Notes under the pieces: generated by a model
Told to the model about the DNA's origin: nothing
Databases searched by the model: none
Seen by the model: the letters and a program-made list of their open reading frames with translations, nothing else
Part shown: piece after piece, positions 7,961 through 64,000 of the stretch
Numbering within the stretch: the stretch's first letter is position 1
Layout: the number at the start of each line of letters is the position of its first letter
Translations under genes and position numbers: made by a program
From: Bacteroidota bacterium
GTDB taxonomy: Bacteria > Bacteroidota > Bacteroidia > Bacteroidales > FEN-979
Direction of reading: 5' to 3'
Assembly: GCA_026391715.1 (NCBI GenBank)
Contig: JAPLDO010000078.1
Location: 137,712 to 201,711, forward strand
DNA length: 64,000 nucleotides

Positions 7961-8023
7961 ATAATTGTTTTTACTTTACAAATGTAGCTTTTTATCAAAC
8001 GTCCTGTCGCCCGGAAAATTGGA

Positions 8024-30258: not shown

Positions 30259-30352
30259 AATGTGCGTCAAATAATCATACCCCTGTGTGTCAAAATTGAA
30301 TAGTCATGAAAGTTTCATTTCGCCTTAAACTTATATTGTTAATTCAAATTAT

Positions 30353-30473
30353 CGTCCCTCGTCCCTCGTCCCTCGTCCCTCGTCCCTCGTCCTTCGTCCT
30401 TCGTCCTTCGTCCTTCGTCCTTCGTCCTTCGTCCTTCGTCCTTCGTCCTTCGTCCCTCGTCCCTCGTCCCTCG
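30353..30473 (-). repeat. heptanucleotide tandem repeat, 17 units (minus strand AGGGACG x3, AAGGACG x10, AGGGACG x4)
   Basis: The plus strand reads CGTCCCT x4, CGTCCTT x10, CGTCCCT x3. The array abuts the TAA stop of the TolC gene at 30474. Confidence 0.95.
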
Positions 30474-31817
30474 TTAAAACGTAATCGCCTTCCCCTGATA
30501 AAAGTCCAGAATCTTCCGCTTGAATATGAAATCATACTTCGCCTGAATAAGGCTTGATTGCGATTGTGCAAAGTTATTTTTCTGGATAAGGAAGTCGGTG
30601 GCGCTCATTACGCCAACCGAGAATTTCTTCTCTGCATTCTGATAAACTGCTTCCACGGCAGCCAACTGCTGTTTTACAGCATCGTATTTTTTGATGGAAG
30701 CATGGGCGTCGGTATAGGTTTGTTCAACGCTTTTCCGAAGAACGTTTTTCACATTCTGCTCGGTGAGCCGGATTGTTGCCAGGTTGATTTTAGCCCGGTC
30801 AATATTACTTTTAATCTGGCGGTTGCTGTAAATCGGAATCGAAATACCCATCGAGAACGACTGCCCCATGTTGCTCCACATCTGTTTAAAAAACGGGTTT
30901 CCTTCCGGATTTACTTCAGAGCCTTTATCGCGGCTCGAAGCGTAGTTGGAGTTCAGGTTTGCTCCCAGAGTAACCCTCGGATAGCGCGCGCCTTCAGAGA
31001 CTTTCAGCGCCATTTCGGATGCATTGGTTTTCAGGGCGGCTCCGGCAATTTGCGGCTGAACAGTCAGCGATTTCTCATAAATCTGCTGATTTGTCAGTAA
31101 AATATCGGTAATTGTTTCATCCATCGCCGGAGCCACTACCGAAAAACCATCGCTAATGGGAATCTCCATCAACTGCATCAGAGTAATATTGGCGATATCG
31201 AGTTGATTCTGCGCCGTGATGACTGCGAGGTTATCGGTAGCCAACTGCGACTGAATCTGTAGCAAATCGCTTTCAGGCGATTTTCCTGCGTTTACAAGTT
31301 TTGTAGTTCTATCAACCTGCGCCATTGTTGCCTCTGCCTGCTTTTTCGCTGATGCAAGAATTTCGGTTGTAAACAAAACCTGGAGATATCCGGTAGTGAC
31401 ATTAAGGGTTACATCGTTTTTTACCTTTTCCACATCATACTCGCCCGCCTTAATATTCAACCGTTGCTGCCTGATGGTATTTGCATTCTGTAATCCATTG
31501 AAAAGATTATAACTGCTGCTGACGCTAAAGTTTGTGGAGTGAAACCCTTCGGTGGTAAAACTATTTGTGATAGGATCTACATTATTTCCAACATTGAGCG
31601 CCTCATTCGCGCTGGCGCTCAAACCTGGTATTCTGTTGGCTTTCGATTGCTCCAGGCTTGTTTTGTTGAGTTCATTTGTAAGCCGGCTCTGGTTAACCGA
31701 AATATTTCGTTGCAATGCAGTATCAAGGCATTGTTTAAAAGTCCAGGGATTTTTCTGGGCGTTTACCATCTCTAATGATAAAAACATGAGGAGATAAATT
31801 ATGCAAGTTCGGATCAT
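30474..31817 (-). CDS. TolC-family outer membrane efflux protein
   Basis: Has a signal peptide from the ATG at 31817 (MIRTCIIYLLMFLSLEMVNAQ) and two OEP-type repeats. It heads the operon with the adaptor and ABC genes. Confidence 0.85.
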   Translation of the reverse strand: MIRTCIIYLLMFLSLEMVNAQKNPWTFKQCLDTALQRNISVNQSRLTNELNKTSLEQSKANRIPGLSASANEALNVGNNVDPITNSFTTEGFHSTNFSVSSSYNLFNGLQNANTIRQQRLNIKAGEYDVEKVKNDVTLNVTTGYLQVLFTTEILASAKKQAEATMAQVDRTTKLVNAGKSPESDLLQIQSQLATDNLAVITAQNQLDIANITLMQLMEIPISDGFSVVAPAMDETITDILLTNQQIYEKSLTVQPQIAGAALKTNASEMALKVSEGARYPRVTLGANLNSNYASSRDKGSEVNPEGNPFFKQMWSNMGQSFSMGISIPIYSNRQIKSNIDRAKINLATIRLTEQNVKNVLRKSVEQTYTDAHASIKKYDAVKQQLAAVEAVYQNAEKKFSVGVMSATDFLIQKNNFAQSQSSLIQAKYDFIFKRKILDFYQGKAITF

Positions 31818-41060: not shown

Positions 41061-41631
41061 TCATCGTTTTTTCATTATTTTTAACAGCAATCTTCCTTTT
41101 GGGGTTGTGATGTATTTTTGGTTTGGACTTGAAGGTTTATCGGGTTTTGTTAAAGACAACCAACCTAAATTGATTAATGGTTTAATGTGAGTTTGAAAAT
41201 TTTTTGTATGCCTGGTAATTTTCAAATAGTTGAAAATCTCCTCTTTCTTGCGTTCCAAATTACAAAAGGTAATTATCTCAAATTCTTTGGTTGAAATAAG
41301 TTTTTCTAAAGTATCAGCTATGTCACCAGCTATGTCACCAGCTATGTCACCGGCTATGTCACCAGCTATGTCACGAGCTTCATTACCATCTTGATTACCA
41401 GATTTGTCATCATAGACGCCATCAACGTTTTCGACTAAATAATTCGGCTTTTTCGCTCAATTCTTTAACACCTATTAAAATATATCCTCCGCCAATGTTT
41501 TCAAAATCATTGGCAAAAGCACAAATACTGCGATAAACAGAATCCGGATTCCATCCTTCTTTAAATTCGATTCGTTCCGATTCAATCGTTTTAGCAGTGA
41601 GTAAATCGTTGATATTTATCGGTAAAATCAT
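41061..41631 (-). pseudogene. decayed AlbA_2/Schlafen-type DNA-binding regulator gene
   Basis: The N-terminal fragment (ESERIEFKEGWNPDSVYRSICAFANDFENIGGGYILIGV) ends in a stop after 69 aa. A C-terminal winged-helix-like fragment lies in another ORF, and the central ATPase portion is absent. Confidence 0.55.
41316..41378. repeat. 12-bp tandem repeat AGCTATGTCACC x5
   Basis: Five consecutive units carry 2 substitutions. On the minus strand they encode (GDIA)n inside the decayed gene. Confidence 0.9.
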
Positions 41632-50380: not shown

Positions 50381-51850
50381 ATGAAGGCCATTCCGTTGTT
50401 TTTCGTCTTCCTCCTTCTGACACAGTTGTCGTTTCCTCAAACCAATGATTCAAGAGACACTGCCAAGGCCAACTTCCGGGATTTTGAAAAATCCTGGAAT
50501 GATGGCTTTAATGATTACGCGGCGCAGCACGATTCTGACCTTTCCAAATATCTTCGAAATCACTGGGAAAAATACCAGATATTTATTGATTCAATAAGAT
50601 CAAAAAATAAACCCAAAAAACAACCGCGGTTTATCCCCGAAACGGGGAAGGTTGAATTTATTGATCCGGATAGCGCAATAGGCAAAGATGAACACAAATT
50701 CTACCAGATCTTTCAGGATTCAACCCCTGTAAAAAATGACATCAATTACTTTTCACCTGAGACTTCATTTGAATTCTATGGGGAAAAACCCGTCAACAAC
50801 TTTAAACAAACCGGTATAAAAGTCACGTCTGTCAATGAATCTTCAATAAAGGAATTTTTACGGAAATATTATTCTGATAAAACCTTGGAAAAAAACAAAA
50901 TTGAACTTATCCGGATTGCATGGGATTTGGGACTCAATGATTATGGATATTATCTGTTGCTCAGAAAAGCTGCAGTGCAGATGTTCGACAACCAAAACGA
51001 AAGGGCGCTCTTCACCTGGTTATACCTTCGGTCAATGAACAAGAGGAAGGTCATCCTCGGGTATGACAAAAATAATGCATACTGCCTGGCAGCCTGTGAT
51101 AAAAATTTGTTCAATCACCAATACGTCCTCATCGAAAAGGTGAAATATTATGTTTTTTTAGCTCCCGGGCAGCCAAAACCAACCGGTGACCTAAGTTACT
51201 ATGATTTGGAAAACTCAACAAAAACGGACCCGTTGACTCTTGAAATAGCCCGCTTCCCAAACCTGAACTACAGGACATCAACCCGGTTTTACCCATTTAA
51301 CCGGGACACCCTGCGCATCAATACAAATCTTTTTCTGATTGAATTCCTCCGCGATTTTCCCCAAACCAACCTGAAATATTATTTCGATGCGCCCGTCTCG
51401 GAAAAGACGTTGAGCGCCCTCGACCACGAAGTTAAACCACTGCTTAATGGCAAAACAGAAGTGGAAGAGGTCAATATCCTGTTGGCTTTTTTTCATAAAT
51501 CCTTCCGTTATAAAACAGATCAGGATCAGTTTGGGTCAGAAAAATATATGTTTTGTGATGAGGTTCTATTTTATCCTTATACCGACTGCGATGACAGGGC
51601 TGTGCTGTTTGCCCGGCTTGTTCAGCGGTACACGGGCTTGCCCGTGATCGGGCTCGATTATCCGAACCATGTATCCGTGGGCGTTTGCTTCTCCACTCCG
51701 GTTTCTGGCGATTCTGTCAAATTCGGGAAAAAAAATTATCTTATTTGTGATCCAACAATTATAAATGCCAAAGTTGGTAATGCCTCTGATTCCATGAACG
51801 CTGTTAAGCCTGTCGTAATCGAGGTAAACATTGATTCCATGAACAATTGA
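50381..51850 (+). CDS. secreted protein with C-terminal Cys-His-Asp (transglutaminase/papain-like) signature
   Basis: Has a signal peptide. YPYTDCDDRAVLFARLV ... YPNHVSVGV ... ICDPT parallels the 53479-56151 paralogue. Confidence 0.55.
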   Translation: MKAIPLFFVFLLLTQLSFPQTNDSRDTAKANFRDFEKSWNDGFNDYAAQHDSDLSKYLRNHWEKYQIFIDSIRSKNKPKKQPRFIPETGKVEFIDPDSAIGKDEHKFYQIFQDSTPVKNDINYFSPETSFEFYGEKPVNNFKQTGIKVTSVNESSIKEFLRKYYSDKTLEKNKIELIRIAWDLGLNDYGYYLLLRKAAVQMFDNQNERALFTWLYLRSMNKRKVILGYDKNNAYCLAACDKNLFNHQYVLIEKVKYYVFLAPGQPKPTGDLSYYDLENSTKTDPLTLEIARFPNLNYRTSTRFYPFNRDTLRINTNLFLIEFLRDFPQTNLKYYFDAPVSEKTLSALDHEVKPLLNGKTEVEEVNILLAFFHKSFRYKTDQDQFGSEKYMFCDEVLFYPYTDCDDRAVLFARLVQRYTGLPVIGLDYPNHVSVGVCFSTPVSGDSVKFGKKNYLICDPTIINAKVGNASDSMNAVKPVVIEVNIDSMNN

Positions 51851-53478: not shown

Positions 53479-56151
53479 ATGAAATCAACAGTGTTTCTCT
53501 GTTCTATTCTGCTATTGGCAGCAATGACAACCTTTGGACAAGTCAACAATGATTTTGAACAGGAAAAGAAAAAGCTCCAAAGCGAAATGAATGAATACAT
53601 CAGGCAGACCCGGAAAGAGTTTACCGATTACGTGGACGGGATCAACAAAGCCTATTCGGAATATCTTCGTAAAAACTGGAAAGAGTTCCCTGCTTTGCGT
53701 GCGATGGAACCCGACTCCATGCCGAAGCCGAAAATTCTGCCTGAATACAATCCAGCGATAGACAAAATTAAACCCGGAGAGGCAGTAAGGGTAATTCCCG
53801 TTCTGGTTCCGGATGCCATTCCACAAATAATACCGAAAATACCCAATATCCCGGTTATCCTCCCGGAGGAGGTCATTGAAGAAACACCGGCGCCTGACGA
53901 TAAAAAGCCACAGGATCCGCTGGAAGAAGCCACTAAACCCATCATCCGTGATAAACAGATATCTTTTTATGGCTCAGAACTATCCGTTGAGTTCGATCCC
54001 GCCATGAAAGGATCCCTTCCCGGGGAAATCCACAACACGACCATCGCCGGATTCTGGGACCGTATGAACAAGACCAATTATCCCCGTTTGATCAAACGGC
54101 TATCCGATTTGCGCACACAAATGAACCTGGGAGATTGGGGGTATTACCAACTGGTGAAAAAAACAGCCGAGTTCATCAATCCCGATGAGAATTATTCCCG
54201 GCTGCTCTCGTGGTTCCTGCTTACCAAATCGGGATATCGTATCCGCGTAGCATATACCGATAATCAAATTGCCCTTCTCTTCCCTTCAGCCAACAAGATT
54301 TACGGAATCCGCTATTTTTTGATCAGCAACGTGAAATACTACGCGCCGGGATTTACCCCCAGCCATATTTATACCTACGAACAAGACTTTCCCGGCGCCA
54401 CAAAAGCGCTTGACCTCAATGTTTACAATGCACTGAATATTGGAAATGACTACGTGATGAAGACGATCATTTTCAGTCATAATGACAAAAACTACTCGAT
54501 TGACGTAGAATACAATGCCAACAGCATTGATTTTTATAAAGATTTCCCTTTGTGCGAACTTAAGCTCTATCTGGATGCAGCGATAACGCCGCGCGCCAAA
54601 GAATCGCTGGTTCGCTCCTTGCAGCCGTTGGTTGAAGGGATGACAGAGGCAGAATCAGTAAACCTCCTTCTTTCGTTTGTCCAGAAAGGGTTTTCATACA
54701 AAACAGATCCTGAGCAGTTTGACGGGCATGAGAAGTTCAATTTCCCTGAAGAGACGCTTTTCTATCCCTATTCCGACTGCGACGACCGCGCCATTTTGTT
54801 CACATGGCTTGTCAGGGAATTGCTGGAACTGAAAGTTGTCGGTTTAGTTTATCCCGGGCATGTAGCCACTGCTGTTCACCTCAACGGGGATGAACCCGGA
54901 GATTTTGTAATGTATAAAGGAGAAAAATACATCGTCGCAGATCCAACTTACATCAATGCCCCAATGGGATTGACAATGCCGGGAATGAAAAATTCAGGCG
55001 CCGAAGTGGTCGAACCAACAATCTTTTACAATGAAAAAGAGATTCTGGCATCAATCTGGGAAAAGGTAGAAATAACAGGCGGGTTCAGAGGTGAAAATTT
55101 TCAGGACATTGACAGGGATTCAAGCGGGAATTACTATATTGCAGGGTATTTTAAGGGTGAACTCACCATCGGGGGAACTACATTGACCTCAAATCCATCA
55201 CAAAACGATGCCTTCATCGCAAGGTTCAACAAAAACGGGAACCCCGAATGGGCCATCAGTGGCGGATGTGAAGGAAATGCGAGGGCCGCGAACATCCGGC
55301 TGGATGATGAAAATAACATGTACATCACCGGCACCTTTGAAAAATCAATCAAATTCGGAGGCATTATGATGTTTGCCAATTCACCGGCCAACGCGTTTGT
55401 GGCCAAACTGAACCCGGATGGCAAACTCCTCTGGATGAACCAAACCGCCATCGACACGACCGATGCCAGGGACAACATCCATGTGCTTTCGCTGACCAGT
55501 TCCGGCAAAGTCATCAAATCAGACAAATACCCGCCCGATCCAAACTTCATGGCCTACGGGATAAGCTTTGATGAAAACAAGAATGTGTATTACACCGCCA
55601 CCTACGCCTATACTGCCGGTTTGATTGATAAGCTCACCATGTCGGCCGAGTCAATTTACAATGTTCCTGCCATTTTAAAAGAGGAGACCGATAAACAGAT
55701 TGAACTGAAATGCAACCAGTCCATCGCCGGCCTCTTCAGTGCCATATCGCTGCTGCGGAATGGAACTGTCGCCATCTCCGGTAAATCGGTACAGGCTGCA
55801 TTTGAAAAGTACAACCCCGACTTCAGGAAAAAATCGCCAAACCTTTACGCATCCATCGGGAAGATCAGTATGATGAAAAATGACCAGGGAATCATCACCA
55901 TCCTTACCGAAGACCAGAAACCCATCGGGCTCGACCGGATGAAAATCAACCACAACACCCGGTTGAAACTTTCGATGCTTCCCAACGGCGACGCGAGAAT
56001 TGATGTGTTGGGCGGCATCAAAGTGGGAAAAGCGATCATCTGGTACAGCTTAAATTTCATCAAGCTCTTCCGCACCAATGGTTCAATGCTGTTCGACTAC
56101 GATTCCGACCACAGCCAGGTGACACTTGACGTTCGTAAGGATTTGCTTTGA
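53479..56151 (+). CDS. large secreted protein: paralogue of 50381-51850 (Cys-His-Asp domain) plus C-terminal beta-propeller-like (SBBP-type) repeats
   Basis: Has a signal peptide and YPYSDCDDRAILFTWLV ... YPGHVATAV ... VADPTY. Repeats include NYYIAGYFKGELTIGG, NAFIARFNKNGNPEWA, NMYITGTFEKSIKFGG and NAFVAKLNPDGKLLWM. Confidence 0.6.
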   Translation: MKSTVFLCSILLLAAMTTFGQVNNDFEQEKKKLQSEMNEYIRQTRKEFTDYVDGINKAYSEYLRKNWKEFPALRAMEPDSMPKPKILPEYNPAIDKIKPGEAVRVIPVLVPDAIPQIIPKIPNIPVILPEEVIEETPAPDDKKPQDPLEEATKPIIRDKQISFYGSELSVEFDPAMKGSLPGEIHNTTIAGFWDRMNKTNYPRLIKRLSDLRTQMNLGDWGYYQLVKKTAEFINPDENYSRLLSWFLLTKSGYRIRVAYTDNQIALLFPSANKIYGIRYFLISNVKYYAPGFTPSHIYTYEQDFPGATKALDLNVYNALNIGNDYVMKTIIFSHNDKNYSIDVEYNANSIDFYKDFPLCELKLYLDAAITPRAKESLVRSLQPLVEGMTEAESVNLLLSFVQKGFSYKTDPEQFDGHEKFNFPEETLFYPYSDCDDRAILFTWLVRELLELKVVGLVYPGHVATAVHLNGDEPGDFVMYKGEKYIVADPTYINAPMGLTMPGMKNSGAEVVEPTIFYNEKEILASIWEKVEITGGFRGENFQDIDRDSSGNYYIAGYFKGELTIGGTTLTSNPSQNDAFIARFNKNGNPEWAISGGCEGNARAANIRLDDENNMYITGTFEKSIKFGGIMMFANSPANAFVAKLNPDGKLLWMNQTAIDTTDARDNIHVLSLTSSGKVIKSDKYPPDPNFMAYGISFDENKNVYYTATYAYTAGLIDKLTMSAESIYNVPAILKEETDKQIELKCNQSIAGLFSAISLLRNGTVAISGKSVQAAFEKYNPDFRKKSPNLYASIGKISMMKNDQGIITILTEDQKPIGLDRMKINHNTRLKLSMLPNGDARIDVLGGIKVGKAIIWYSLNFIKLFRTNGSMLFDYDSDHSQVTLDVRKDLL

Positions 56152-56184: not shown

Positions 56185-57795
56185 ATGAAAATTCAGCGAT
56201 CACACCACCGGTTTAAAGCCCGGACGCCCCTGCGGAACCCGGTAAACGATGCCAACGCGTTTGCAGCATCGTTGCGGGCAGTTGGTTTTACCGTGATCGT
56301 GAAGAACAACCTGAACAAGACGGAGATGGAAAACGCGGTGAGAAATTACTCGCAAAGGCTCACCGCCGGCGATGTCGCGCTGTTCTATTACAGCGGCCAC
56401 AGGATGCAGGTAAAGGGCGTCAATTACCTGGTGCCGGTGGGCGAAAGCATCTATTCGGAGGTTGATATTCCATACAAGAGCATGGAGGCACAATTTGTGA
56501 TTGACTACATGCAGGAGGCAAAAACCTCTGTGAACATCATCATCCTTGATGCCTGCCGCGACAACCCGTTCAAATCCTTCCGATCCCTGAGCCGCGGGTT
56601 TGTGCCGGTAATCGCCCCCCAGGGCACTTTCATCGCCTATTCCACCGCCCCCGGAACGGTAGCCTTCGATGGCGCCGGCAGCCACTCACCTTACACCGAA
56701 AACCTGATCGCCTCCATGAAAAAACCGGGGATGCCCATCGAGGAGATGTTCAAAGAGGTGAGGCGGAACGTGATGAACGAAACTTCGAAGATGCAGGTGC
56801 CGTGGGAATCCTCGTCATTGATTGATGCCTTCGCGTTCAATGGGGTTGTAAATTCAAAGATTGTAATTCCCGAATCAACACCGCCCATCGTCAATAAACC
56901 ACTTGCTAAGACTGCAAATTTGCATAAGGATTGTAATAGACTTATTTATATGGCCGATAGATCCTTAAGCGATAAAGAATACTTCAATGCACGAGAAAAC
57001 TATCAAAAAGCGTCACTCATTGAACCTGGAGAGTCCTATCCAAAAGATAAAATCCGGGAAATAGATATATTGCTGGCTAAGAACTTAGATTTATTTACTA
57101 CTATGGTATTTGTGGAGGGCGGAACTTTTCAAATGGGCAGCAACGATGGTTATGACAATGAAAAACCGGTACATTCGGTAACGCTCAATAATTTTTATAT
57201 CGGCAAAACCGAAGTGACCCAGAAACAATGGAGGGAGGTGATGGGCAGCGATCCGCCGGAGTTAAATAACAAAGGTTGCGATCAATGTCCGGTAGAGGGT
57301 GTTTCATGGATTGATGTACAGGATTTCATCACGAAACTGAACCGGAAAACCAATAAAACTTATCGCCTGCCCACCGAAGCAGAATGGGAATATGCCGCAA
57401 GGGGCGGAAACAAAAGCAGGGGATACGCGTATAGCGGAAGCACCAACGTTGGCGATGTGGCATGGTATTCAGAAAATTCCGGTTTAATAACCCACCCGGT
57501 CGGGCAAAAAGAGCCAAATGAACTCGGGATTTACGACATGACCGGAAACGTTTGGGAATGGTGCAGAGATTGGTATGGTGCCTATGAATATGACTGGAAC
57601 AGTACGATTTCCAACCCTCAGGGCCCTTCATCGGGCTCCGACCATGTGTTTCGCGGTGGCGGTTGGGGCATCGGCCCTCAGTACTGCCGCACTTCGTATC
57701 GCAACGGCGCTGCCCCCGACTATCGCAGCTACTATCTGGGGTTTCGTTTTTTTTTTCCCATAGTTCGGGGGCGGCTGTTTGGCCATTCCTTTTGA
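56185..57795 (+). CDS. caspase-like (peptidase C14) - FGE-sulfatase/C-type-lectin-fold fusion protein, putative DGR target A
   Basis: Caspase motifs are NPVNDA, YYSGHRMQ (His) and ILDACRDNPF (Cys). FGE-type motifs are RLPTEAEWEYAARGG, GNVWEWC, RGGGW and LGFR. There is no signal peptide and the first caspase strand appears to be missing. Confidence 0.8.
   Translation: MKIQRSHHRFKARTPLRNPVNDANAFAASLRAVGFTVIVKNNLNKTEMENAVRNYSQRLTAGDVALFYYSGHRMQVKGVNYLVPVGESIYSEVDIPYKSMEAQFVIDYMQEAKTSVNIIILDACRDNPFKSFRSLSRGFVPVIAPQGTFIAYSTAPGTVAFDGAGSHSPYTENLIASMKKPGMPIEEMFKEVRRNVMNETSKMQVPWESSSLIDAFAFNGVVNSKIVIPESTPPIVNKPLAKTANLHKDCNRLIYMADRSLSDKEYFNARENYQKASLIEPGESYPKDKIREIDILLAKNLDLFTTMVFVEGGTFQMGSNDGYDNEKPVHSVTLNNFYIGKTEVTQKQWREVMGSDPPELNNKGCDQCPVEGVSWIDVQDFITKLNRKTNKTYRLPTEAEWEYAARGGNKSRGYAYSGSTNVGDVAWYSENSGLITHPVGQKEPNELGIYDMTGNVWEWCRDWYGAYEYDWNSTISNPQGPSSGSDHVFRGGGWGIGPQYCRTSYRNGAAPDYRSYYLGFRFFFPIVRGRLFGHSF
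57610..57760 (+). repeat. putative DGR variable region, copy A
   Basis: Aligns with 61215-61364 and 63251-63400. Blocks such as GGCCCTTCATCGGGCTCCGACC and CGCGGTGGCGGTTGG are invariant, and substitutions are confined to particular codons. Confidence 0.6.
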
Positions 57796-57855
57796 GCCAG
57801 GACATTCAAAATTCCTAACTTCGCTGATGAAAAACATTTAAAACAGCAAATTGAA

Positions 57856-59100
57856 ATGACTAAAATAAAAATAAAGAATTTCGGGCCCGTCAAAGAGGGA
57901 TATCAGGACAATGACGGCTGGCTTGATGTGAAAAAGGTTACCCTGTTTATCGGTAATCAGGGAAGTGGTAAAAGCGCCGTGGCAAAACTTATCACAACTT
58001 TTATGTGGATAGAGAAAGTCCTTACAAGGGGCGACTACGACAGGAAAAGTTTTTCAAAAGTTTTTGCCATGAAGGACCAGGGGAAAAACCAGTTTCTCAC
58101 ATACTTCCGGTTGGAAAATTATTTTCCGACCGACCGCACCAGAACTTTGATTGAATACAAAGGCGAATCATTCAACATTACACTTGAAAACGGACAACTA
58201 CATATTGAAGCTGCGAAAAATGGCGACTACCCGCTGCCACAAATCATGTATGTTCCGGCCGAAAGAAATTTTATTGCAAATGTGAGAACCCCGAAAGCGC
58301 TGAAACTGATTTCGCCTTCCTTGTCGGAATTTGTGACCGAGTTTGACAATTCCAGGGATGAAATTAGAGAGCCGATGCTTTTGCCAATCAATGATGCCTT
58401 TGTTGAGTATAACAAGTTGAACGATGTTGTTTATATCAAAGGGAATGATTACAGGATTAAGTTGACCGAGTCATCAAGCGGTTTTCAGTCATTGGTCCCA
58501 TTGTTTTTGGTTTCATGGTTTCTTTCCAATTCAGTTAAGCGACAAAGCGACAACACGAAAGAATTGATGACAAGTGAACAAAGGGAACGATTTCGCAAAC
58601 GGTTTCAGGCAATAAATGAAAACCTTGATTTAACCGAAGAACAAAAACGGATTGCAATTTCTTCACTTGCAAAAGAATTTACCAAAACTGCTTTCATCAA
58701 TGTCGTAGAAGAACCGGAACAAAATCTGTTTCCAGGTTCGCAACATGGGGTGTTGAACCGGTTGATCGAATTCAACAACATGAATAGCGGGAACAAATTA
58801 ATAATGACCACCCACAGCCCATACCTGGTTAATTATCTGACTTTGGCAGTAAAGGCAAATGATTTGAACGGAATGATCAAAACGGAGGCGCTTAGAACAC
58901 GGTTAAATGAAATTGTTCCCCTCCAATCAACAACAAGCGCCGACGAGCTTGCAATTTACGAAATGAACGAAAAGGATGGGACGATAGTAAAGTTGGCCAA
59001 CTACAAAGGGTTACCTGATGACGACAATTATTTGAATGAAAAGCTGGCAGAATGCAACGAACTATTTGCAAAACTATTGGAAATTCAGCAAGAAATATGA
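57856..59100 (+). CDS. ABC-type (AAA_15/AAA_21-like) ATPase
   Basis: Has N-terminal IKNFGPV, Walker A (GNQGSGKS), Q-loop (YVPAERN), signature-like SSSGFQS, Walker B (FINVVEEPEQNLFP) and H-loop (MTTHSP). Confidence 0.8.
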   Translation: MTKIKIKNFGPVKEGYQDNDGWLDVKKVTLFIGNQGSGKSAVAKLITTFMWIEKVLTRGDYDRKSFSKVFAMKDQGKNQFLTYFRLENYFPTDRTRTLIEYKGESFNITLENGQLHIEAAKNGDYPLPQIMYVPAERNFIANVRTPKALKLISPSLSEFVTEFDNSRDEIREPMLLPINDAFVEYNKLNDVVYIKGNDYRIKLTESSSGFQSLVPLFLVSWFLSNSVKRQSDNTKELMTSEQRERFRKRFQAINENLDLTEEQKRIAISSLAKEFTKTAFINVVEEPEQNLFPGSQHGVLNRLIEFNNMNSGNKLIMTTHSPYLVNYLTLAVKANDLNGMIKTEALRTRLNEIVPLQSTTSADELAIYEMNEKDGTIVKLANYKGLPDDDNYLNEKLAECNELFAKLLEIQQEI

Positions 59101-59597
59101 GTGTGGATTTTTCTAAAGCGGAGTGTCAGGACAACTCTAAAAAACATTTATTCGGGCTTTGTGATGACCGACCCGGACAACGGGCATATTTAGATGAAGT
59201 AGATGGCGGTAAATGGATTGCTGTTGTGGTAAACGATTACAGATACGAAACAACTTTCACCGCTGTTGACCATTGCATAGATTTGCAAAGAGATGATGGC
59301 AATTTGGCAAAAAGATGCGATGGCTTTTTATCTTACAATTCAACAGTAATTTTTGTTGAACTGAAAGAAAGAGGCGCAATGAATAATGCCTGGGTAACTG
59401 ATGGAGAAAAACAGTTGAGAAGTTCACTTGATTTTTTTAAGGCTGACAGCTACTCAAAAAGGTTCACAGCGAAAAAAGCATACATCGCAAACAGTGAACA
59501 TCCAAGGTTCAAAGTAAGTCAACTCAGACGAATGGAACAATTTCTGGACGACACGGGTTTTGTGCTGCGAATTGAAAACAGAATCATCCTCCAATAA
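59097..59597 (+). CDS. small partner protein with PD-(D/E)xK-like motif
   Basis: Its start overlaps the ATPase stop (ATGA at 59097-59100). CDGFLSYNSTVIFVELKERG fits D-x(n)-E-x-K. No other recognisable domain. Confidence 0.45.
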   Translation: MSVDFSKAECQDNSKKHLFGLCDDRPGQRAYLDEVDGGKWIAVVVNDYRYETTFTAVDHCIDLQRDDGNLAKRCDGFLSYNSTVIFVELKERGAMNNAWVTDGEKQLRSSLDFFKADSYSKRFTAKKAYIANSEHPRFKVSQLRRMEQFLDDTGFVLRIENRIILQ

Positions 59598-59612
59598 TGA
59601 AAGAATACCGAC

Positions 59613-61364
59613 ATGAAGACAAAACTACATTTTTTCATTTTATGTGCCATTTCCATTTTTTACGCTTCGGTGGTCTCCGCCCAGGAGCGCGGCATGCAGC
59701 CTGTCATTTTGAAAATTGACGGCAAAACCACCACGCTCTACCGGCAAAGTTACGCGCTGGTTATCGGGGTGAGCAAATACACAAGCGGATGGCCATCCCT
59801 TCCTGGCGTTGAAAGCGATGTAACGGCAGTGGTATCGGCGCTGGAGAAAAACGGGTTTAATGTTACAAAGGTCCTTAACCCTCAGACCAGGGCCGATCTG
59901 GAAACTGCCATTGAAAATTTTATCAACAGGCACGGGCAGGACACCAACAGCCGTTTGCTCTTTTATTTCGCCTTGCACGGTCACACCATCAAAATGTCAT
60001 ACGGGGAGAGCCTGGGCTACCTTTGTCCCGCCAACGCGCCAGACCCGAATACCAACAAGGCAGATTTTATAACAAAAGCTTTGCCCATGGAAGCTTTTGA
60101 TTTGTTCGCCAAAAAAATAAACTCGAAACATGCCCTGTTTTTGTTCGACGCCTGTTTTGCCGGGCAGGTCTTTTCCGCTACCCGCGCCGCGCCCGAGATA
60201 ATCCAATACAAAACCAGGTTGCCGGTGAGGCAGTTCATCACCAGCGGCGATGCCGATGAAACCGTTCCAGATGTGAGTATTTTCAGGCGGGTTTTTGTTC
60301 AGGCGTTAGAGGGGTATGCCGAAAAAGGCGGCGATGGTTACCTCACCGGCTCCGAACTGGGTGAATATCTTCAGGAACAGGTGGTCAACCTTTCGAATGG
60401 AACCCAGCACCCGCAGTATGGCAAGATCAGGAACATTTATTTAAACAAAGGCGATTTCGTGTTCGTGGTGAAACAAAACACGGCAAAGCCACCGGATGAA
60501 ATCATCATCGAACCGGAAAAACCAAGGATAGCTGACGCTTCGTTTATCCCCGCAGTGGTTTCCATTCCCGGCGGTACTTTCCTTATGGGCAGCAATGATG
60601 GGGAAGATGATGAAAAGCCGGTGCACCGGGTTACGGTAAGTGGTTTTTCGATGGGGAAATACGAAGTAACAGTTTCGCAGTTTAAGAAGTTTATTGACGA
60701 AACAGGCCACCGTACCGATGCCGATAAAGATGGCGGCAGTTACATGTGGACAGGCAGCGAGTGGGAAAAACGCGCCGGGGTAACCTGGAGGTGCGACGCG
60801 GAAGGGAACGCCCGCCCGCAAAACGAATATGACCACCCGGTGATCCACGTAAGCTGGAACGATGCCGTTGAATATTGCAGGTGGTTGAGCGGCAAGACCG
60901 GAAACACCTACCGTTTGCCAACCGAAGCCGAGTGGGAATATGCCGCTGGAAACGGCGCGAAACACACCAGGTACAGTTGGGGCAACGGGGAGCCATGGGG
61001 TAAAAATGGCGGGAACGTAGCCGATGAAGCGGCAAAAAGAAAATTTTCCGGTTGGACCATCTTTTCCGGTTATGACGACGGTTACGTGTTTACTTCGCCT
61101 GTTGGAACCTATAATCCAAACGAATTCGGACTTTACGACATGACCGGCAACGTTTGGGAGTGGTGCAGCGACTGGTATGGCGCGCAATATTACCAGGGCA
61201 GCCCGGCTTCCAACCCTGAAGGCCCTTCATCGGGCTCCGACCGTGTGTTTCGCGGTGGCGGTTGGCTCATCTACCCTCAGTACTGCCGCACTTCGTATCG
61301 CAGCGACCGCACCCCCGGCTACCGCAACTACTATTTGGGGTTTCGTTTGGTTTTTGTCCCATAG
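59613..61364 (+). CDS. secreted caspase-like (C14) - FGE-sulfatase/C-type-lectin-fold fusion protein, putative DGR target B
   Basis: Has a signal peptide ending VVSAQE and caspase motifs YALVIGVSKY, LHGH and LFDACFAG. FGE-type motifs are RLPTEAEWEYAAGNG, GNVWEWC, RGGGW and LGFRLVFVP. Confidence 0.85.
   Translation: MKTKLHFFILCAISIFYASVVSAQERGMQPVILKIDGKTTTLYRQSYALVIGVSKYTSGWPSLPGVESDVTAVVSALEKNGFNVTKVLNPQTRADLETAIENFINRHGQDTNSRLLFYFALHGHTIKMSYGESLGYLCPANAPDPNTNKADFITKALPMEAFDLFAKKINSKHALFLFDACFAGQVFSATRAAPEIIQYKTRLPVRQFITSGDADETVPDVSIFRRVFVQALEGYAEKGGDGYLTGSELGEYLQEQVVNLSNGTQHPQYGKIRNIYLNKGDFVFVVKQNTAKPPDEIIIEPEKPRIADASFIPAVVSIPGGTFLMGSNDGEDDEKPVHRVTVSGFSMGKYEVTVSQFKKFIDETGHRTDADKDGGSYMWTGSEWEKRAGVTWRCDAEGNARPQNEYDHPVIHVSWNDAVEYCRWLSGKTGNTYRLPTEAEWEYAAGNGAKHTRYSWGNGEPWGKNGGNVADEAAKRKFSGWTIFSGYDDGYVFTSPVGTYNPNEFGLYDMTGNVWEWCSDWYGAQYYQGSPASNPEGPSSGSDRVFRGGGWLIYPQYCRTSYRSDRTPGYRNYYLGFRLVFVP
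61170..61364 (+). repeat. putative DGR variable region, copy B
   Basis: Collinear with 63206-63400. Roughly two dozen substitutions fall in about 20 codons, nearly all at codon positions 1-2. The last 29 nt including the stop are identical. Confidence 0.65.
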
Positions 61365-61520
61365 TTTGGGGGAGGCTATTTTGCCATACCTTTTGAGCTA
61401 AGAAGAGACGAGTTTTGCAAGGAGGGAGGGAGGGACGACCGACCGACAAGGCAAAACGAGGAATTAACAATACCGCCCATGGCGGTCGAAATTTTTTTGA
61501 AAATGCAGCTAAAATTATTT
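61365..61520 (+). repeat. conserved 3' element after target B (IMH-like GC block, G-rich tract, hairpin, relic of HRDC gene start)
   Basis: Near-identical to 63401-63560. It contains GGAGGGAGGGAGGGACGACCGACCGAC (61421-61447) and the hairpin ACCGCC-CAT-GGCGGT (61472-61486). It ends with ATGCAGCTAAAATTATTTGCC, which resembles the HRDC ORF start. Confidence 0.75.
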
Positions 61521-61588
61521 GCCCGGATGTCACAAAGCAATCTTTTCGTCCACTTATTATTACCTTTAGTGCGATAAATTGCCACGTT

Positions 61589-63400
61589 ATGAAAACAGCC
61601 CTCCTCCTTGTCCTGCCTTTTTCCATTTTCATTTTTCACTTTTCACTTGTCTCAGCCCAGGAACGCGGCATGCAGCAGGTAAAGGTGAACATCGCCAACA
61701 AACCGGTTGTCCTTTATCAGAAAAGCTATGCCCTGCTGATTGGCGTAAGCGATTATTCCAATGGATTGAAAAAACTCCCTGGCGTAAAAGAGGACATTGA
61801 GGCAGTGAAAGATCAACTGGAAAAGTTCGGTTTCCTGGTGACGGTGGTCATGAACCCCGATAATACCGGGTTGACCAATGCGTTTAACAATTTCATCGCC
61901 AATTACGGGCAGGAGAAGGAGAGCCGTTTGGTTTTTTATTTTGCCGGGCATGGATATACAAGGAACATATACGGCAATGAGATAGGCTATCTGCTGCCTG
62001 TAAATTGCCCGAATCCGGAACTCAACCCATCCGGATTCCAGTCGAATGCCATGCCAATGGGTCAGATCGAACTCTTTGCCCAGCAGGTAGGGTCGAAGCA
62101 TGCCCTTTTTCTTTTTGACGCCTGTTTTTCGGGCGCTGTTTTTGCGCCGTCAAGGGATATTCCGGGGATCATATCATATAAAACTGAACTGCCTGTGCGC
62201 CAGTTCATCACCAGCGGCAGCGCCGACGAAACAGTGCCCGATCAAAGTATATTCCGCAGGCAGTTGTTGGCTGGCTTGCAGGGCGAAGCCGATTTAAACC
62301 ACGACCAATACATCACCGGTACCGAACTGGGGGATTATCTTCAAACAACCGTAGTAAATTATTCCCGCTCTTCATTGCATCCACAGGTAGGAAAAATCCG
62401 CGACCCGAAACTCGACGATGGCGATTTTGTGTTCGTGGTGAAAAATAACACGGCAAAGCCACCGGATGACATCATCATCGAACCGGCAAAAACATGGGTG
62501 CAATACGGCAAACTGGAACTCATGACCGAAATTGCGGGATCCCTTTACATTGACGGCGAAAACAAACAAACGCTCAATGCAAACACCATAAATACTTTTG
62601 GAAATCTTCCGGCAGGTTCGCACACCATTAAAATAGAAGGCGAAGAAACAGTTGAAAAGGAGGTTACCATAACTGCCAATGAAACGGCTAATTTAACCAT
62701 GAAAAAGAGGCCGCGGCAAGCTGCATCAACAGATAATGAAATGGTATTTGTGGAAGGCGGAACCTTTCAAATGGGCAGCAACGATGGGGATAGCGATGAA
62801 AAACCGGTACATTCGGTAACGCTCAATAATTTTTATATCGGCAAGACCGAAGTGACCCAAAAACAATGGAGGGAAGTGATGGGCAGTGATCCGCCGGATT
62901 TAAAAAACAAAGGTTGCGATCAATGTCCGGTGGAGAGTGTTTCATGGAATGATGTACAGGATTTCATCGCAAAACTGAACCGGAAAACCAATAAAACTTA
63001 TCGCCTGCCCACCGAAGCCGAATGGGAATATGCCGCAAGGGGCGGGAACAAAAGCAGGGGATACGCGTATAGCGGAAGCGCCAACGTTGGCGATGTTGCA
63101 TGGTATTCAGAAAATTCCGGTTCAAAAATCCACCCGGTCGCGCAAAAACAACCCAATGAACTGGGGCTGTACGACATGAGCGGCAACGTTTGGGAATGGT
63201 GCAGCGACTGGTATGTCGCGCAATATTACCAGAACAGCCCGGCTTCCAACCCCCAAGGCCCTTCATCGGGCTCCGACCGTGTGCTTCGCGGTGGCGGTTG
63301 GGACTACGACCCTCGGAACTGCCGCTCTTCGTTTCGCGGCAACGACCCCCCCGCCGACCGCGGCGACGATTTGGGGTTTCGTTTGGTTTTTGTCCCATAG
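61589..63400 (+). CDS. secreted caspase-like (C14) - PEGA-like - FGE-sulfatase/C-type-lectin-fold fusion protein, putative DGR target C
   Basis: A signal peptide starts at the ATG at 61589 (MKTALLLVLPFSIFIFHFSLVSAQE). Caspase motifs are YALLIGVSDY, AGHGY and LFDACFSG. A middle domain carries LPAGSHTIKIEGEE, and the FGE-type C-terminus is about 93-95 percent identical by eye to target A. Confidence 0.85.
   Translation: MKTALLLVLPFSIFIFHFSLVSAQERGMQQVKVNIANKPVVLYQKSYALLIGVSDYSNGLKKLPGVKEDIEAVKDQLEKFGFLVTVVMNPDNTGLTNAFNNFIANYGQEKESRLVFYFAGHGYTRNIYGNEIGYLLPVNCPNPELNPSGFQSNAMPMGQIELFAQQVGSKHALFLFDACFSGAVFAPSRDIPGIISYKTELPVRQFITSGSADETVPDQSIFRRQLLAGLQGEADLNHDQYITGTELGDYLQTTVVNYSRSSLHPQVGKIRDPKLDDGDFVFVVKNNTAKPPDDIIIEPAKTWVQYGKLELMTEIAGSLYIDGENKQTLNANTINTFGNLPAGSHTIKIEGEETVEKEVTITANETANLTMKKRPRQAASTDNEMVFVEGGTFQMGSNDGDSDEKPVHSVTLNNFYIGKTEVTQKQWREVMGSDPPDLKNKGCDQCPVESVSWNDVQDFIAKLNRKTNKTYRLPTEAEWEYAARGGNKSRGYAYSGSANVGDVAWYSENSGSKIHPVAQKQPNELGLYDMSGNVWEWCSDWYVAQYYQNSPASNPQGPSSGSDRVLRGGGWDYDPRNCRSSFRGNDPPADRGDDLGFRLVFVP
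63206..63400 (+). repeat. putative DGR variable region, copy C
   Basis: See copies A and B. The variable codons read GAC TAC GAC ... AAC ... GGC AAC GAC ... GCC GAC ... GGC GAC GAT. Confidence 0.65.
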
Positions 63401-63538
63401 TTCGGGGGCGGCTGTTTGGCCATGCCTTTTGAGCTAAGAAGAAACGAGTTTTGCAAGGAGGGAGGGAGGGACGACCGACCGACAAGGCAAAACGAGGAAT
63501 TAACAATACCGCCTGTGGCGGTCGAAAAAATTTTTGAA
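63401..63538 (+). promoter_or_regulatory. conserved 3' element after target C (IMH-like GC block, G-rich tract, hairpin)
   Basis: TTCGGGGGCGGCTGTTTGGCC follows the stop directly. The G-rich tract is at 63457-63483 and the hairpin ACCGCC-TGT-GGCGGT at 63508-63522. The stems are identical in copies B and C while the loops differ. Confidence 0.55.
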
Positions 63539-64000
63539 ATGCAACTGAAATTGTTCACCATCCCTGTAACCGACACAGGGGCTTTTACAGAAGAACTCAA
63601 CAGGTTTTTGCGCGCCAATAAAATACTGGAAGTCGAAAATCATTTGATAAGCAATGAACACGGGGCATCCTGGTGTTTTTGCGTAAAATATATCGAATCG
63701 GGCTGGACACCCCACCCCGGCGACCGGCCAAAAACAGATTATAAAACCGAGTTGGACGCGGAAACTTTTGAAGTGTTTTCAAAACTCAGGGAGGCTCGTA
63801 AACAGTTGGCTTTGGAGGATGCCGTTCCCGCATACGCTATCTGTACCGACCAGGAGATGGCTTTAATTGCCAAACTAAAAGAGTTGACCCTTGAAAATTT
63901 ACTTACCGTGAAAGGTTTTGGGGATAAAAAACTTGAAAAATACGGAAACCGGCTAATCCTTATAGTTAAACAAAAAACACAAGATGAAAAGGGCAGGGAA
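63539..64000 (+). CDS. HRDC-domain protein, N-terminal part (frame open to right window edge); candidate DGR accessory gene
   Basis: The frame runs uninterrupted from the ATG at 63539 to the window end. FEVFSKLREARKQLALEDAVPAYAICTDQEMALIAKL...VKGFGDKKLEKYG fits the HRDC consensus. It is absent from the ORF track because no stop is reached. Confidence 0.75.
   Translation, partial: MQLKLFTIPVTDTGAFTEELNRFLRANKILEVENHLISNEHGASWCFCVKYIESGWTPHPGDRPKTDYKTELDAETFEVFSKLREARKQLALEDAVPAYAICTDQEMALIAKLKELTLENLLTVKGFGDKKLEKYGNRLILIVKQKTQDEKGRE

What the first reader, a model, noticed from the sequence alone, without database searches (positions are those of the whole stretch)
57610..63400. Substitution pattern at the three C-termini is what adenine-directed mutagenic homing would produce
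I aligned the copies codon by codon from the invariant CGC GGT GGC GGT TGG block. Copy A reads GGC ATC GGC CCT CAG TAC TGC CGC ACT TCG TAT CGC AAC GGC GCT GCC CCC GAC TAT CGC AGC TAC TAT. Copy B reads CTC ATC TAC CCT CAG TAC TGC CGC ACT TCG TAT CGC AGC GAC CGC ACC CCC GGC TAC CGC AAC TAC TAT. Copy C reads GAC TAC GAC CCT CGG AAC TGC CGC TCT TCG TTT CGC GGC AAC GAC CCC CCC GCC GAC CGC GGC GAC GAT. Differences fall almost entirely on the first two positions of a recurring set of codons, and most third positions stay C. Interspersed codons (CCT, TGC CGC, TCG, CGC, CCC, CGC, TTG GGG TTT CGT) are identical. That is the signature expected if a template repeat carries AAC/AAT-type codons at those sites. 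In B and C the homogenised block starts further upstream (GAC TGG TAT G at 61170 and 63206), although the rest of their FGE domains is dissimilar. This is what repeated overwriting by one common template would give.
Basis: seen in the sequence. Interest (0 to 1): 0.8.

Follow-up and report, generated by a model that had tools for sequence, protein, structure and literature searches.

The report
Three-target diversity-generating retroelement, template found

Summary
Three caspase + FGE-sulfatase genes end in about 133-nt repeats: A 57633-57763, B 61232-61364, C 63268-63400. No fourth copy lies in the window. An HRDC accessory gene (63539 onwards) and the first codons of a reverse transcriptase (63984 onwards) run off its end.

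A Logan contig (L056) matches the last 517 bases of the window exactly. It continues through the RT into the template repeat (TR); 97 nt of the TR were recovered. The TR has 29 adenines, all at codon positions 1 or 2.
- Copy B differs from the TR at 16 adenines and at 0 of 68 other bases.
- Copy C differs at 19 adenines and at 0 of 68 other bases.
- Copy A differs at 18 adenines and at 3 other bases.

Copy A also has a truncated N-terminus and a 2-nt deletion, so it is probably a decaying target.

One sub-claim fails. The B/C similarity upstream of 61232 lies outside the TR. It is 89% identical with mostly third-position differences, so it is a segmental duplication, not template overwriting.

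This is a new member of a known kind (HRDC-type, multi-target DGR).

Side finding: in related loci the VR 3' flank is the reverse complement of the hairpin that follows the TR. This fits integration guided by an RNA primer.

The parts
56185..57795 (+). Target gene A: Peptidase_C14 (caspase) + FGE-sulfatase. It has no signal peptide, its N-terminus is truncated, and its C-terminal tail is frameshifted (LGFRFFFPIVRGRLFGHSF).
   Evidence: Pfam E-values are 2e-38 and 5.5e-52. The alignment with B and C shows the missing N-terminus and the tail. The 2-nt deletion is, and the same sequence is present in Logan contig L003.
57633..57763 (+). Variable region A (131 nt). It carries the adenine-mutagenesis signature plus three non-adenine mismatches, at 57644 (G>A), 57711 (C>T) and 57723 (C>T). 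It is probably a relic or rarely homed target.
   Evidence: 18 of 29 template adenines are changed and 3 of 68 other bases are changed, p = 2e-9.
57764..57797 (+). Target-site flank of VR-A (IMH-like element), TTCGGGGGCGGCTGTTTGGCCATTCCTTTTGAGC.
   Evidence: It is one of only three matches to GCCATNCCTTTTGAGC in the window. Its reverse complement matches the TR 3' flank of related loci.
59613..61364 (+). Target gene B: signal peptide + caspase + FGE-sulfatase (C-type lectin fold).
   Evidence: Pfam E-values are 6.5e-14 and 1.4e-70. PDB hits are human FGE at 2.5e-48 and TvpA (2y3c) at 5e-18.
61232..61364 (+). Variable region B (133 nt, ends with the stop codon).
   Evidence: 16 of 29 template adenines are changed and 0 of 68 other bases are changed, p = 9e-11.
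61365..61398 (+). Target-site flank of VR-B (IMH-like element).
61589..63400 (+). Target gene C: signal peptide + caspase + PEGA + FGE-sulfatase. It is a mosaic: the N-terminus resembles B, the FGE body resembles A (94%), and the 3' end resembles B.
   Evidence: Pfam hits are. The identity profile is and the repeats D3 and D4 are.
63268..63400 (+). Variable region C (133 nt, ends with the stop codon).
   Evidence: 19 of 29 template adenines are changed and 0 of 68 other bases are changed, p = 3e-13.
63401..63434 (+). Target-site flank of VR-C (IMH-like element).
63539..64000 (+). HRDC-domain accessory gene, cut by the window end. The full protein is 156 aa and its stop would lie at 64007-64009.
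   Evidence: Pfam HRDC E-value is 1.2e-15. It is 100% identical to P0001 / MCX6278124.1. L056 positions 56-526 cover it.
63984..64000 (+). First codons (MKRAGN) of the DGR reverse transcriptase, overlapping the HRDC gene. The rest of the RT (332 aa) and the template repeat lie just beyond the window. The TR would start at about 64984 in window-equivalent numbering.
   Evidence: L056 positions 1-517 equal window 63484-64000 at 517/517 bases. The RT is L056 501-1499 (P0124, RVT_1) and the TR runs from L056 1501.

Best explanation
This is a chromosomal diversity-generating retroelement in a Bacteroidota MAG. The gene order is target A, an inserted defence gene pair, target B, target C, HRDC, RT, TR.

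Inferred mechanism, from the established DGR pathway: the RT, together with the HRDC protein, copies the TR RNA into cDNA and misincorporates opposite adenines. The cDNA then replaces the last ~133 nt of a target gene. These bases encode the ligand-binding face of an FGE-type C-type lectin domain fused to a secreted caspase-like protease.

Shown here:
- the template exists next to an intact RT;
- all of its adenines sit at codon positions 1 or 2, with 12 AAY codons in the 97 nt recovered;
- VR-B and VR-C equal the template at every non-adenine base, while their immediate flanks have diverged by 11-15%.

Inferred here:
- the element is currently active on B and C;
- copy A is a decaying or rarely homed target;
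- the last 36 nt of the TR carry AAC AAT at the two remaining variable codons, as in all the closest relatives.
For: - Template and enzymes. L056 overlaps the window at 517/517 bases and continues into the RT and the TR. The RT is the same protein found on the 228,691-nt NCBI contig that carries the window's HRDC protein. It has the DGR hallmark IGNLTSQ and YMDD (L056 1041-1155).
- Adenine specificity. Mismatches at adenine / non-adenine bases are A 18/3, B 16/0 and C 19/0. All 19 B-C differences are at template adenines.
- Codon positions. The position bias is found inside the block and not outside it.
- Homogenisation. B-C divergence is 11% immediately upstream (13 of 117) and 5 of 34 in the 3' flank, but 0 of 68 at non-adenine VR bases. 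The chance of that at 11% divergence is about 0.89^68 = 4e-4 (inference).
- Target-site flanks. Each VR is followed by the same conserved flank, which is present only three times in the window.
- Relatives. Dozens of related loci have the same VR-HRDC-RT-TR layout, with AAC-rich TRs and A-mutated VRs.
- Fold. The target domain is the FGE / C-type lectin fold, as in TvpA.
Against: - The 3' 36 nt of the native TR and its flank were not recovered, because the contig ends inside the repeat.
- No read-level or population data could be obtained, so current activity is inferred and not shown.
- In the 5' third of the VR, four of five template-adenine sites carry the same base in all three copies. Those changes may be one inherited event or the result of selection rather than independent homing.
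- Copy A has three non-adenine mismatches and an indel.
- The DNA hairpin expected 3' of a VR folds no better than shuffled sequence.
- The RT scores below every NCBIfam cut-off, and that library returned no DGR-specific family.
Confidence: 0.93

Rival explanations
1. The DGR is genuine but is now a fossil. All three variable regions record past homing and nothing is being diversified today.
For: VR-A is identical in the window and in an assembly from another run (L003). No population variation could be retrieved. Four of five 5' adenine sites are the same in all three copies.
Against: The RT and HRDC reading frames are intact, and the RT is identical in two assemblies. VR-B and VR-C have no non-adenine mismatch to the TR although neighbouring sequence has diverged 11-15%. 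This argues for overwriting after the B/C duplication. Short-read assemblies break exactly at the VRs, as expected for repeats or for variable sites.
Confidence: 0.15
2. One reading: the extended B/C similarity upstream of the variable codons (from about 61116/63152) is also produced by repeated overwriting from the common template.
For: B-C identity jumps from 40-73% to about 90% at about 61116 and stays high into the VR.
Against: TR homology starts at 61232/63268, and 5' of it the TR locus is the RT coding sequence. The upstream block has 13 differences, 7 of them at third positions, so it is neither identical nor adenine-directed. The similarity also runs about 135 nt past the stop codon, which a TR-derived cDNA cannot reach. 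Gene C is a mosaic of A-like and B-like segments. A duplication or gene conversion explains all of this.
Confidence: 0.04
3. There is no retroelement involvement. The three C-termini are paralogues under diversifying selection, with gene conversion keeping the scaffold codons alike.
For: Paralogous mosaic genes and a duplicated 3' segment do exist here.
Against: This cannot explain a non-coding fourth copy placed after an RT with adenines at 22 of 25 variable columns (p = 8e-13). It also cannot explain zero third-position changes between B and C.
Confidence: 0.01

Closest known systems
Treponema denticola TvpA DGR (HRDC-type; 'Architecture C' of Wu et al. 2018, PMC5758913; Nimkulrat et al. 2016, PMC4891356)
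   Same: It has an HRDC accessory gene that overlaps the RT start in another frame. The target has an FGE-sulfatase-type C-type lectin domain (TvpA 2y3c hit at 5e-18). It has several target genes per element and AAC-rich TR codons.
   Different: Here the order is targets-HRDC-RT-TR, with the TR abutting the RT stop codon. The targets carry an N-terminal caspase domain and a signal peptide. The host is a Bacteroidota MAG. One target looks degenerate.
Bordetella phage BPP-1 DGR (mtd-avd-TR-brt), the prototype
   Same: It uses adenine-specific TR-to-VR information transfer. The VR lies at the 3' end of a C-type lectin-fold gene. A specific element 3' of the VR differs from the sequence 3' of the TR. 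The fold-back RNA primer model of Naorem et al. 2017 (PMC5703328) fits the flank geometry seen here.
   Different: BPP-1 uses Avd rather than HRDC, its TR lies upstream of the RT, it has a GC-rich IMH plus a strong hairpin, and it has a single target. In BPP-1 the inverse similarity between the spacer and the VR flank is weak: score 23 against shuffles of 15.4 +/- 2.5. In the HRDC clade the z-scores are 7-21.
Cyanobacterial orthocaspase-CLec variable proteins (Vallota-Eastman et al. 2020, PMC7517822) and multi-target DGR loci with unequal VR activity (Dore et al. 2024, PMC10907252)
   Same: A caspase-like peptidase is fused N-terminally to a DGR-diversified C-type lectin domain. Several targets are served by one TR. 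Activity differs between VRs of one locus.
   Different: Those are in cyanobacteria or purple sulfur bacteria, often with STAND/MoxR-vWA partners that are not seen here. The proteins here have signal peptides and so are probably exported.

Membership tests
Diversity-generating retroelement (DGR) | A TR/VR repeat pair whose mismatches fall almost only on TR adenines | tested here: met
   B has 16 mismatches at adenines and 0 of 68 at other bases. C has 19 and 0 of 68. A has 18 and 3 of 68. Fisher p ranges from 2e-9 to 3e-13. This covers 97 of about 133 nt of the TR.
Diversity-generating retroelement (DGR) | An adjacent reverse transcriptase of the DGR type (RVT_1 with the (I/L/V)GxxxSQ motif and YxDD) | tested here: met
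   P0124 is 332 aa with RVT_1. IGNLTSQ and YMDD are read in L056 1041-1155. The RT start is at window 63984. No DGR-specific model was among the NCBIfam matches, and all hits are below cut-off.
Diversity-generating retroelement (DGR) | The VR lies at the 3' end of a target gene, in a C-type lectin / FGE-type fold, with the TR adenines at codon positions 1-2 | tested here: met
   FGE-sulfatase E-values range from 5.5e-52 to 1.4e-70. PDB hits are FGE and TvpA. Adenines by codon position are 15 / 14 / 0.
Diversity-generating retroelement (DGR) | An accessory gene (Avd or HRDC) in the cassette | tested here: met
   HRDC E-value is 1.2e-15 at 63539 onwards, overlapping the RT start.
Diversity-generating retroelement (DGR) | A target-site element 3' of the VR (IMH plus stem-loop) that differs from the TR 3' end | tested here: inconclusive
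   A conserved 34-nt flank follows all three VRs and occurs nowhere else in the window. As DNA it folds no better than shuffles. The native TR flank was not recovered. In relatives the VR flank is the reverse complement of the TR flank.
Diversity-generating retroelement (DGR) | Observed diversification of the VR within a population, or experimentally | not testable with these tools
   No reads are available. Exact-protein look-ups for B and C found nothing. The homologue search saturated without close relatives.
Formylglycine-generating enzyme (catalytic FGE) | The two catalytic cysteines of the active site | tested here: not met
   In the alignment to human FGE the first cysteine of the ...MCHRSYC... 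motif aligns to variable residues (WLIYPQYC in B). That the two cysteines of this motif are the catalytic pair is from my own knowledge of human FGE. The site is the hypervariable region, so these proteins are binding domains like TvpA and not enzymes (the last point is inference).

The most novel reading that the evidence does not exclude
In this HRDC-type DGR clade the sequence right after each VR is not a diverged copy of the sequence after the TR. It is the reverse complement of it. The TR is followed by a 30-50-nt hairpin X, of the form AGC[UCAA]...GGAU loop...[UUGA]AC, whose closing stem covaries C-G / U-A across loci. The target's bottom strand reads 5'-X'-CTATGGG-rcVR, which is colinear with a self-primed X(RNA)-cDNA chimera.

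This would be comparative, covariation-based evidence that the cDNA integrates like an Okazaki fragment, with the whole priming hairpin RNA annealing to the target's sense strand. It would also mean that this complementarity, rather than an IMH sequence as such, defines what counts as a target. Targets would then be predictable and re-programmable from sequence. The three window flanks fit the rule against relatives' X elements, but the native X was not recovered.
Probability: 0.45. Interest if true: 0.6.

Novelty: new member of a known kind. Interest (0 to 1): 0.35.

Why it matters
For the finding itself, it shows that a reader can call a DGR correctly from the variable regions alone. It adds a clean three-target, HRDC-type example in which two targets are perfectly homogenised to the template and one is decaying. 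The targets are probably exported caspase-lectin fusions, a class whose ligands are unknown.

The wider point is the flank rule seen in the relatives. How the mutagenised cDNA enters the target is still described as incompletely understood (PMC12875486). A target flank that co-varies as the reverse complement of the RNA hairpin following the template gives a direct, testable prediction for that step.

Tried and rejected
- Searched the window for a fourth repeat copy (the TR). None was found.
- Exact-protein look-ups for targets B and C and for the HRDC protein P0001 found nothing on record.
- Contigs carrying the neighbouring ATPase break at the VRs.
- HRDC-guided scans of GTDB genomes and JGI metagenomes returned relatives at 80% identity or less, not the source.
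- Cluster members L054 and L055 are 84-89% identical at the DNA level and end before the TR.
- The route that worked was the partial RT of L054, then P0124, then Logan contig L056.
- An exact scan of viral contigs for the native TR gave 0 hits.
- Reaching the TR 3' end through a downstream gene was abandoned, because relatives L026 and L030 have unrelated downstream genes.
- A search for population variants of the FGE domain saturated at 8000 candidates with no hit above 77% identity.
- DNA folding of the VR flanks gave z-scores from -0.4 to +0.7, so there is no significant hairpin.
- Rfam has no family on the TR flank.
- Pfam on the five upstream genes gave nothing informative.
- Rejected: template overwriting as the cause of the B/C upstream block.
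- Rejected: paralogue divergence without a retroelement.
Full report
**What is in the window**

Three plus-strand genes lie at 56185-57795 (A), 59613-61364 (B) and 61589-63400 (C; the ORF is open from 61415). Each combines a Peptidase_C14 caspase domain with a C-terminal FGE-sulfatase domain, and C also has a PEGA domain. Their last ~130 nt form a three-member repeat family. The anchor CGCGGTGGCGGTTGG occurs exactly three times.

**Finding the template**

No fourth copy lies in the window. Downstream of C, a gene starting at 63539 encodes an HRDC-domain protein (Pfam 1.2e-15) and runs off the window. At 63984 a second frame opens with MKRAGN, which is how the RTs of related loci begin.

Exact look-ups for B, C and the HRDC protein failed. 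Scans with the HRDC protein gave only relatives at 80% identity or less. A partial RT from relative L054 led to P0124, a 332-aa RVT_1 protein. P0124 is recorded on the same 228,691-nt NCBI Bacteroidota contig as the window's HRDC protein.

P0124 is also encoded on Logan contig L056. L056 positions 1-517 equal window 63484-64000 at 517 of 517 bases. L056 continues through the RT (501-1499), which carries IGNLTSQ and YMDD. One base after the RT stop codon it enters a repeat copy: GGGCTCCAACCGTGTGAATCGCGGTGGCAGTTGGAACAACAACCCTCAGAACTGCCGCACTTCGAATCGCAACAACAACACCCCCGACAACCGCAAC. The contig ends there.

| Copy | Mismatches at the 29 TR adenines | Mismatches at the 68 other TR bases | Fisher p |
|---|---|---|---|
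| A | 18 | 3 | 2e-9 |
| B | 16 | 0 | 9e-11 |
| C | 19 | 0 | 3e-13 |

- All 29 TR adenines in the 97 nt lie at codon positions 1 (15) or 2 (14). Twelve codons are AAY.
- Of 25 columns that vary among the three VRs, 22 are template adenines (p = 8e-13). The other three are private to copy A.
- All 19 B-C differences are at adenines (p = 3e-13).
- Pooled over the three copies, the adenines are kept 34 times and become G 28, T 19 and C 6 times.
- For the last 36 nt the native TR is missing. All of the closest related TRs read AAC AAT at the two remaining variable codons. This matches TAC TAT / TAC TAT / GAC GAT.

**Inside versus outside the block**

| Region compared | Differences by codon position 1/2/3 |
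|---|---|
| VR block, B-C | 14/7/0 |
| VR block, A-C | 12/10/2 |
| VR block, A-B | 5/8/2 |
| FGE body, A-C (57103-57500) | 6/5/14 |
| 117 nt just 5' of the TR boundary, B-C | 3/3/7 |

B and C have diverged by 11% just upstream and at 5 of 34 bases in the 3' flank. At non-adenine VR positions they show no difference at all. At 11% divergence the chance of that over 68 sites is about 4e-4 (inference). This is the real signature of homogenisation by a common template, and it is confined to 61232-61364 and 63268-63400.

TR homology starts at GGGCTCC (57633, 61232, 63268). Further 5', the TR locus is the end of the RT gene. The B/C similarity from about 61116 therefore cannot come from the template.

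That stretch is 89% identical with mainly third-position differences. The similarity continues about 135 nt beyond the stop codon. Gene C is a mosaic: a B-like N-terminus, an A-like FGE body (94%) and a B-like 3' end. A segmental duplication or gene conversion explains this.

The 'invariant' GGT in CGC GGT GGC GGT TGG is AGT in the template, changed to G in all three copies. In the 5' third of the VR, four of five adenine sites have the same base in A, B and C. Part of the pattern is therefore inherited or selected rather than three independent events. The A-to-G change gives RGGGW, a scaffold motif.

**Copy A**

Copy A has three non-adenine mismatches: 57644 G>A, 57711 C>T and 57723 C>T. It has a 2-nt deletion that makes the reading frame run through the flank element to 57795. 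It lacks a signal peptide and the first ~45 residues that B and C have. The same sequence is found in an assembly of another run (L003). It is most simply a decaying or rarely homed target, although its 3' flank is intact. Unequal activity of VRs within one DGR locus has been reported (PMC10907252).

**Comparison with what is known**

- HRDC-containing DGRs are 'Architecture C' of Wu et al. (PMC5758913), typified by the Treponema denticola TvpA element. There the accessory gene also overlaps the RT (PMC4891356).
- The FGE domain of B matches human FGE (2.5e-48) and TvpA (5e-18). The VR covers the position of the first cysteine of the MCHRSYC motif, which I take to be a catalytic cysteine from my own knowledge of human FGE. 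These are therefore binding domains, not enzymes.
- Orthocaspase-CLec variable proteins are known in cyanobacteria (PMC7517822).
- Nothing about the finding itself is outside the known kind. It is a new member.

**Side finding: the flank rule**

In related loci the ~35-50 nt after the VR are the reverse complement of the ~35-50 nt after the TR, starting right at the shared ...TAG.

- This holds in 12 of 13 TR-VR pairs, with z-scores of 7-21 against shuffles. Direct alignment is at background.
- Matched pairs score 43 on average against 16.6 for mismatched loci. At least seven unrelated sequence classes each match only their own partner.
- The TR-side element folds as a hairpin with a GGAU-type loop.
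- Its closing stem covaries: AGCUCAA...UUGAAC versus AGCUUAA...UUAAAC, read directly.
- The three window flanks fit the class of L004, L007 and L010.
- The target's bottom strand thus reads X'-CTATGGG-rcVR, colinear with a fold-back-primed RNA-cDNA chimera.
- Naorem et al. proposed for BPP-1 that the cDNA-linked RNA primer pairs with the VR IMH (PMC5703328). In BPP-1 itself I find only a weak echo: score 23 against shuffles of 15.4 +/- 2.5.
- No Rfam family covers the element.
- The native TR flank was not recovered, so for this window the rule rests on relatives.

**Verdict**

This is a real, typical DGR with its template about 1 kb outside the window. Interest in the finding is modest. The flank rule is the part worth following up.

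Noticed in passing
Window 57764-57797, 61365-61398, 63401-63434. Related loci L004, L007, L010, L011, L014, L016, L020, L023, L024, L030, L039.: The VR 3' flank is the reverse complement of the hairpin that follows the TR. This holds in 12 of 13 pairs (z 7-21) and covaries across at least 7 sequence classes. It is consistent with an RNA-primer/target pairing step in cDNA integration. BPP-1 shows only a weak echo.
   Followed up: partly
Window 57856-59100 and 59097-59597: An AAA_15/AAA_21 ATPase plus a 166-aa protein match the PADLOC candidate defence system PDC-M29, A at 8e-175 and B at 2e-60. The pair is inserted between DGR targets A and B.
   Followed up: partly
Window 56185-57795: Target A lacks the signal peptide and the first caspase strand that B and C have. 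It carries a 2-nt deletion near 57745-57756 that extends the ORF through the flank element. It looks like a decaying paralogue.
   Followed up: partly
Window 61399-61500 and 63435-63536: A ~100-nt GA-rich intergenic segment (ACGAGTTTTGCAAGGAGGGAGGGAGGGACGACCGACCGACAAGGCAAAACGAGGAATTAACAATACCGCC) is duplicated after B and C. Related motifs (GAGTTTTGC...GAGCGAGGGACG) precede the HRDC gene in L007, L010 and L014. It may be a leader or promoter of the HRDC-RT-TR transcript.
   Followed up: no
Window 30338-30491 and 41291-41410: There are two short tandem arrays: a 7-nt unit TCGTCC(C/T), about 20 copies, and a 12-nt unit CAGCTATGTCAC, about 6-7 copies. They are unrelated to the DGR.
   Followed up: no
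Window 51556-51621 and 54747-54812: A 66-nt stretch is 71% similar between two upstream genes (protein motif ...FYPYSDCDDRA...). This suggests paralogous proteins upstream of the DGR targets. Pfam finds no family for them.
   Followed up: no
L058 (BPP-1, AY029185) spacer nt 22-41 and the VR hairpin: CTTGGCGGGCTGGCCTTTC in the spacer matches the reverse complement of the VR stem-loop at 16 of 19 positions with a 3-nt gap. The score is about 3 sd above shuffles, but individual shuffles reach higher.
   Followed up: partly
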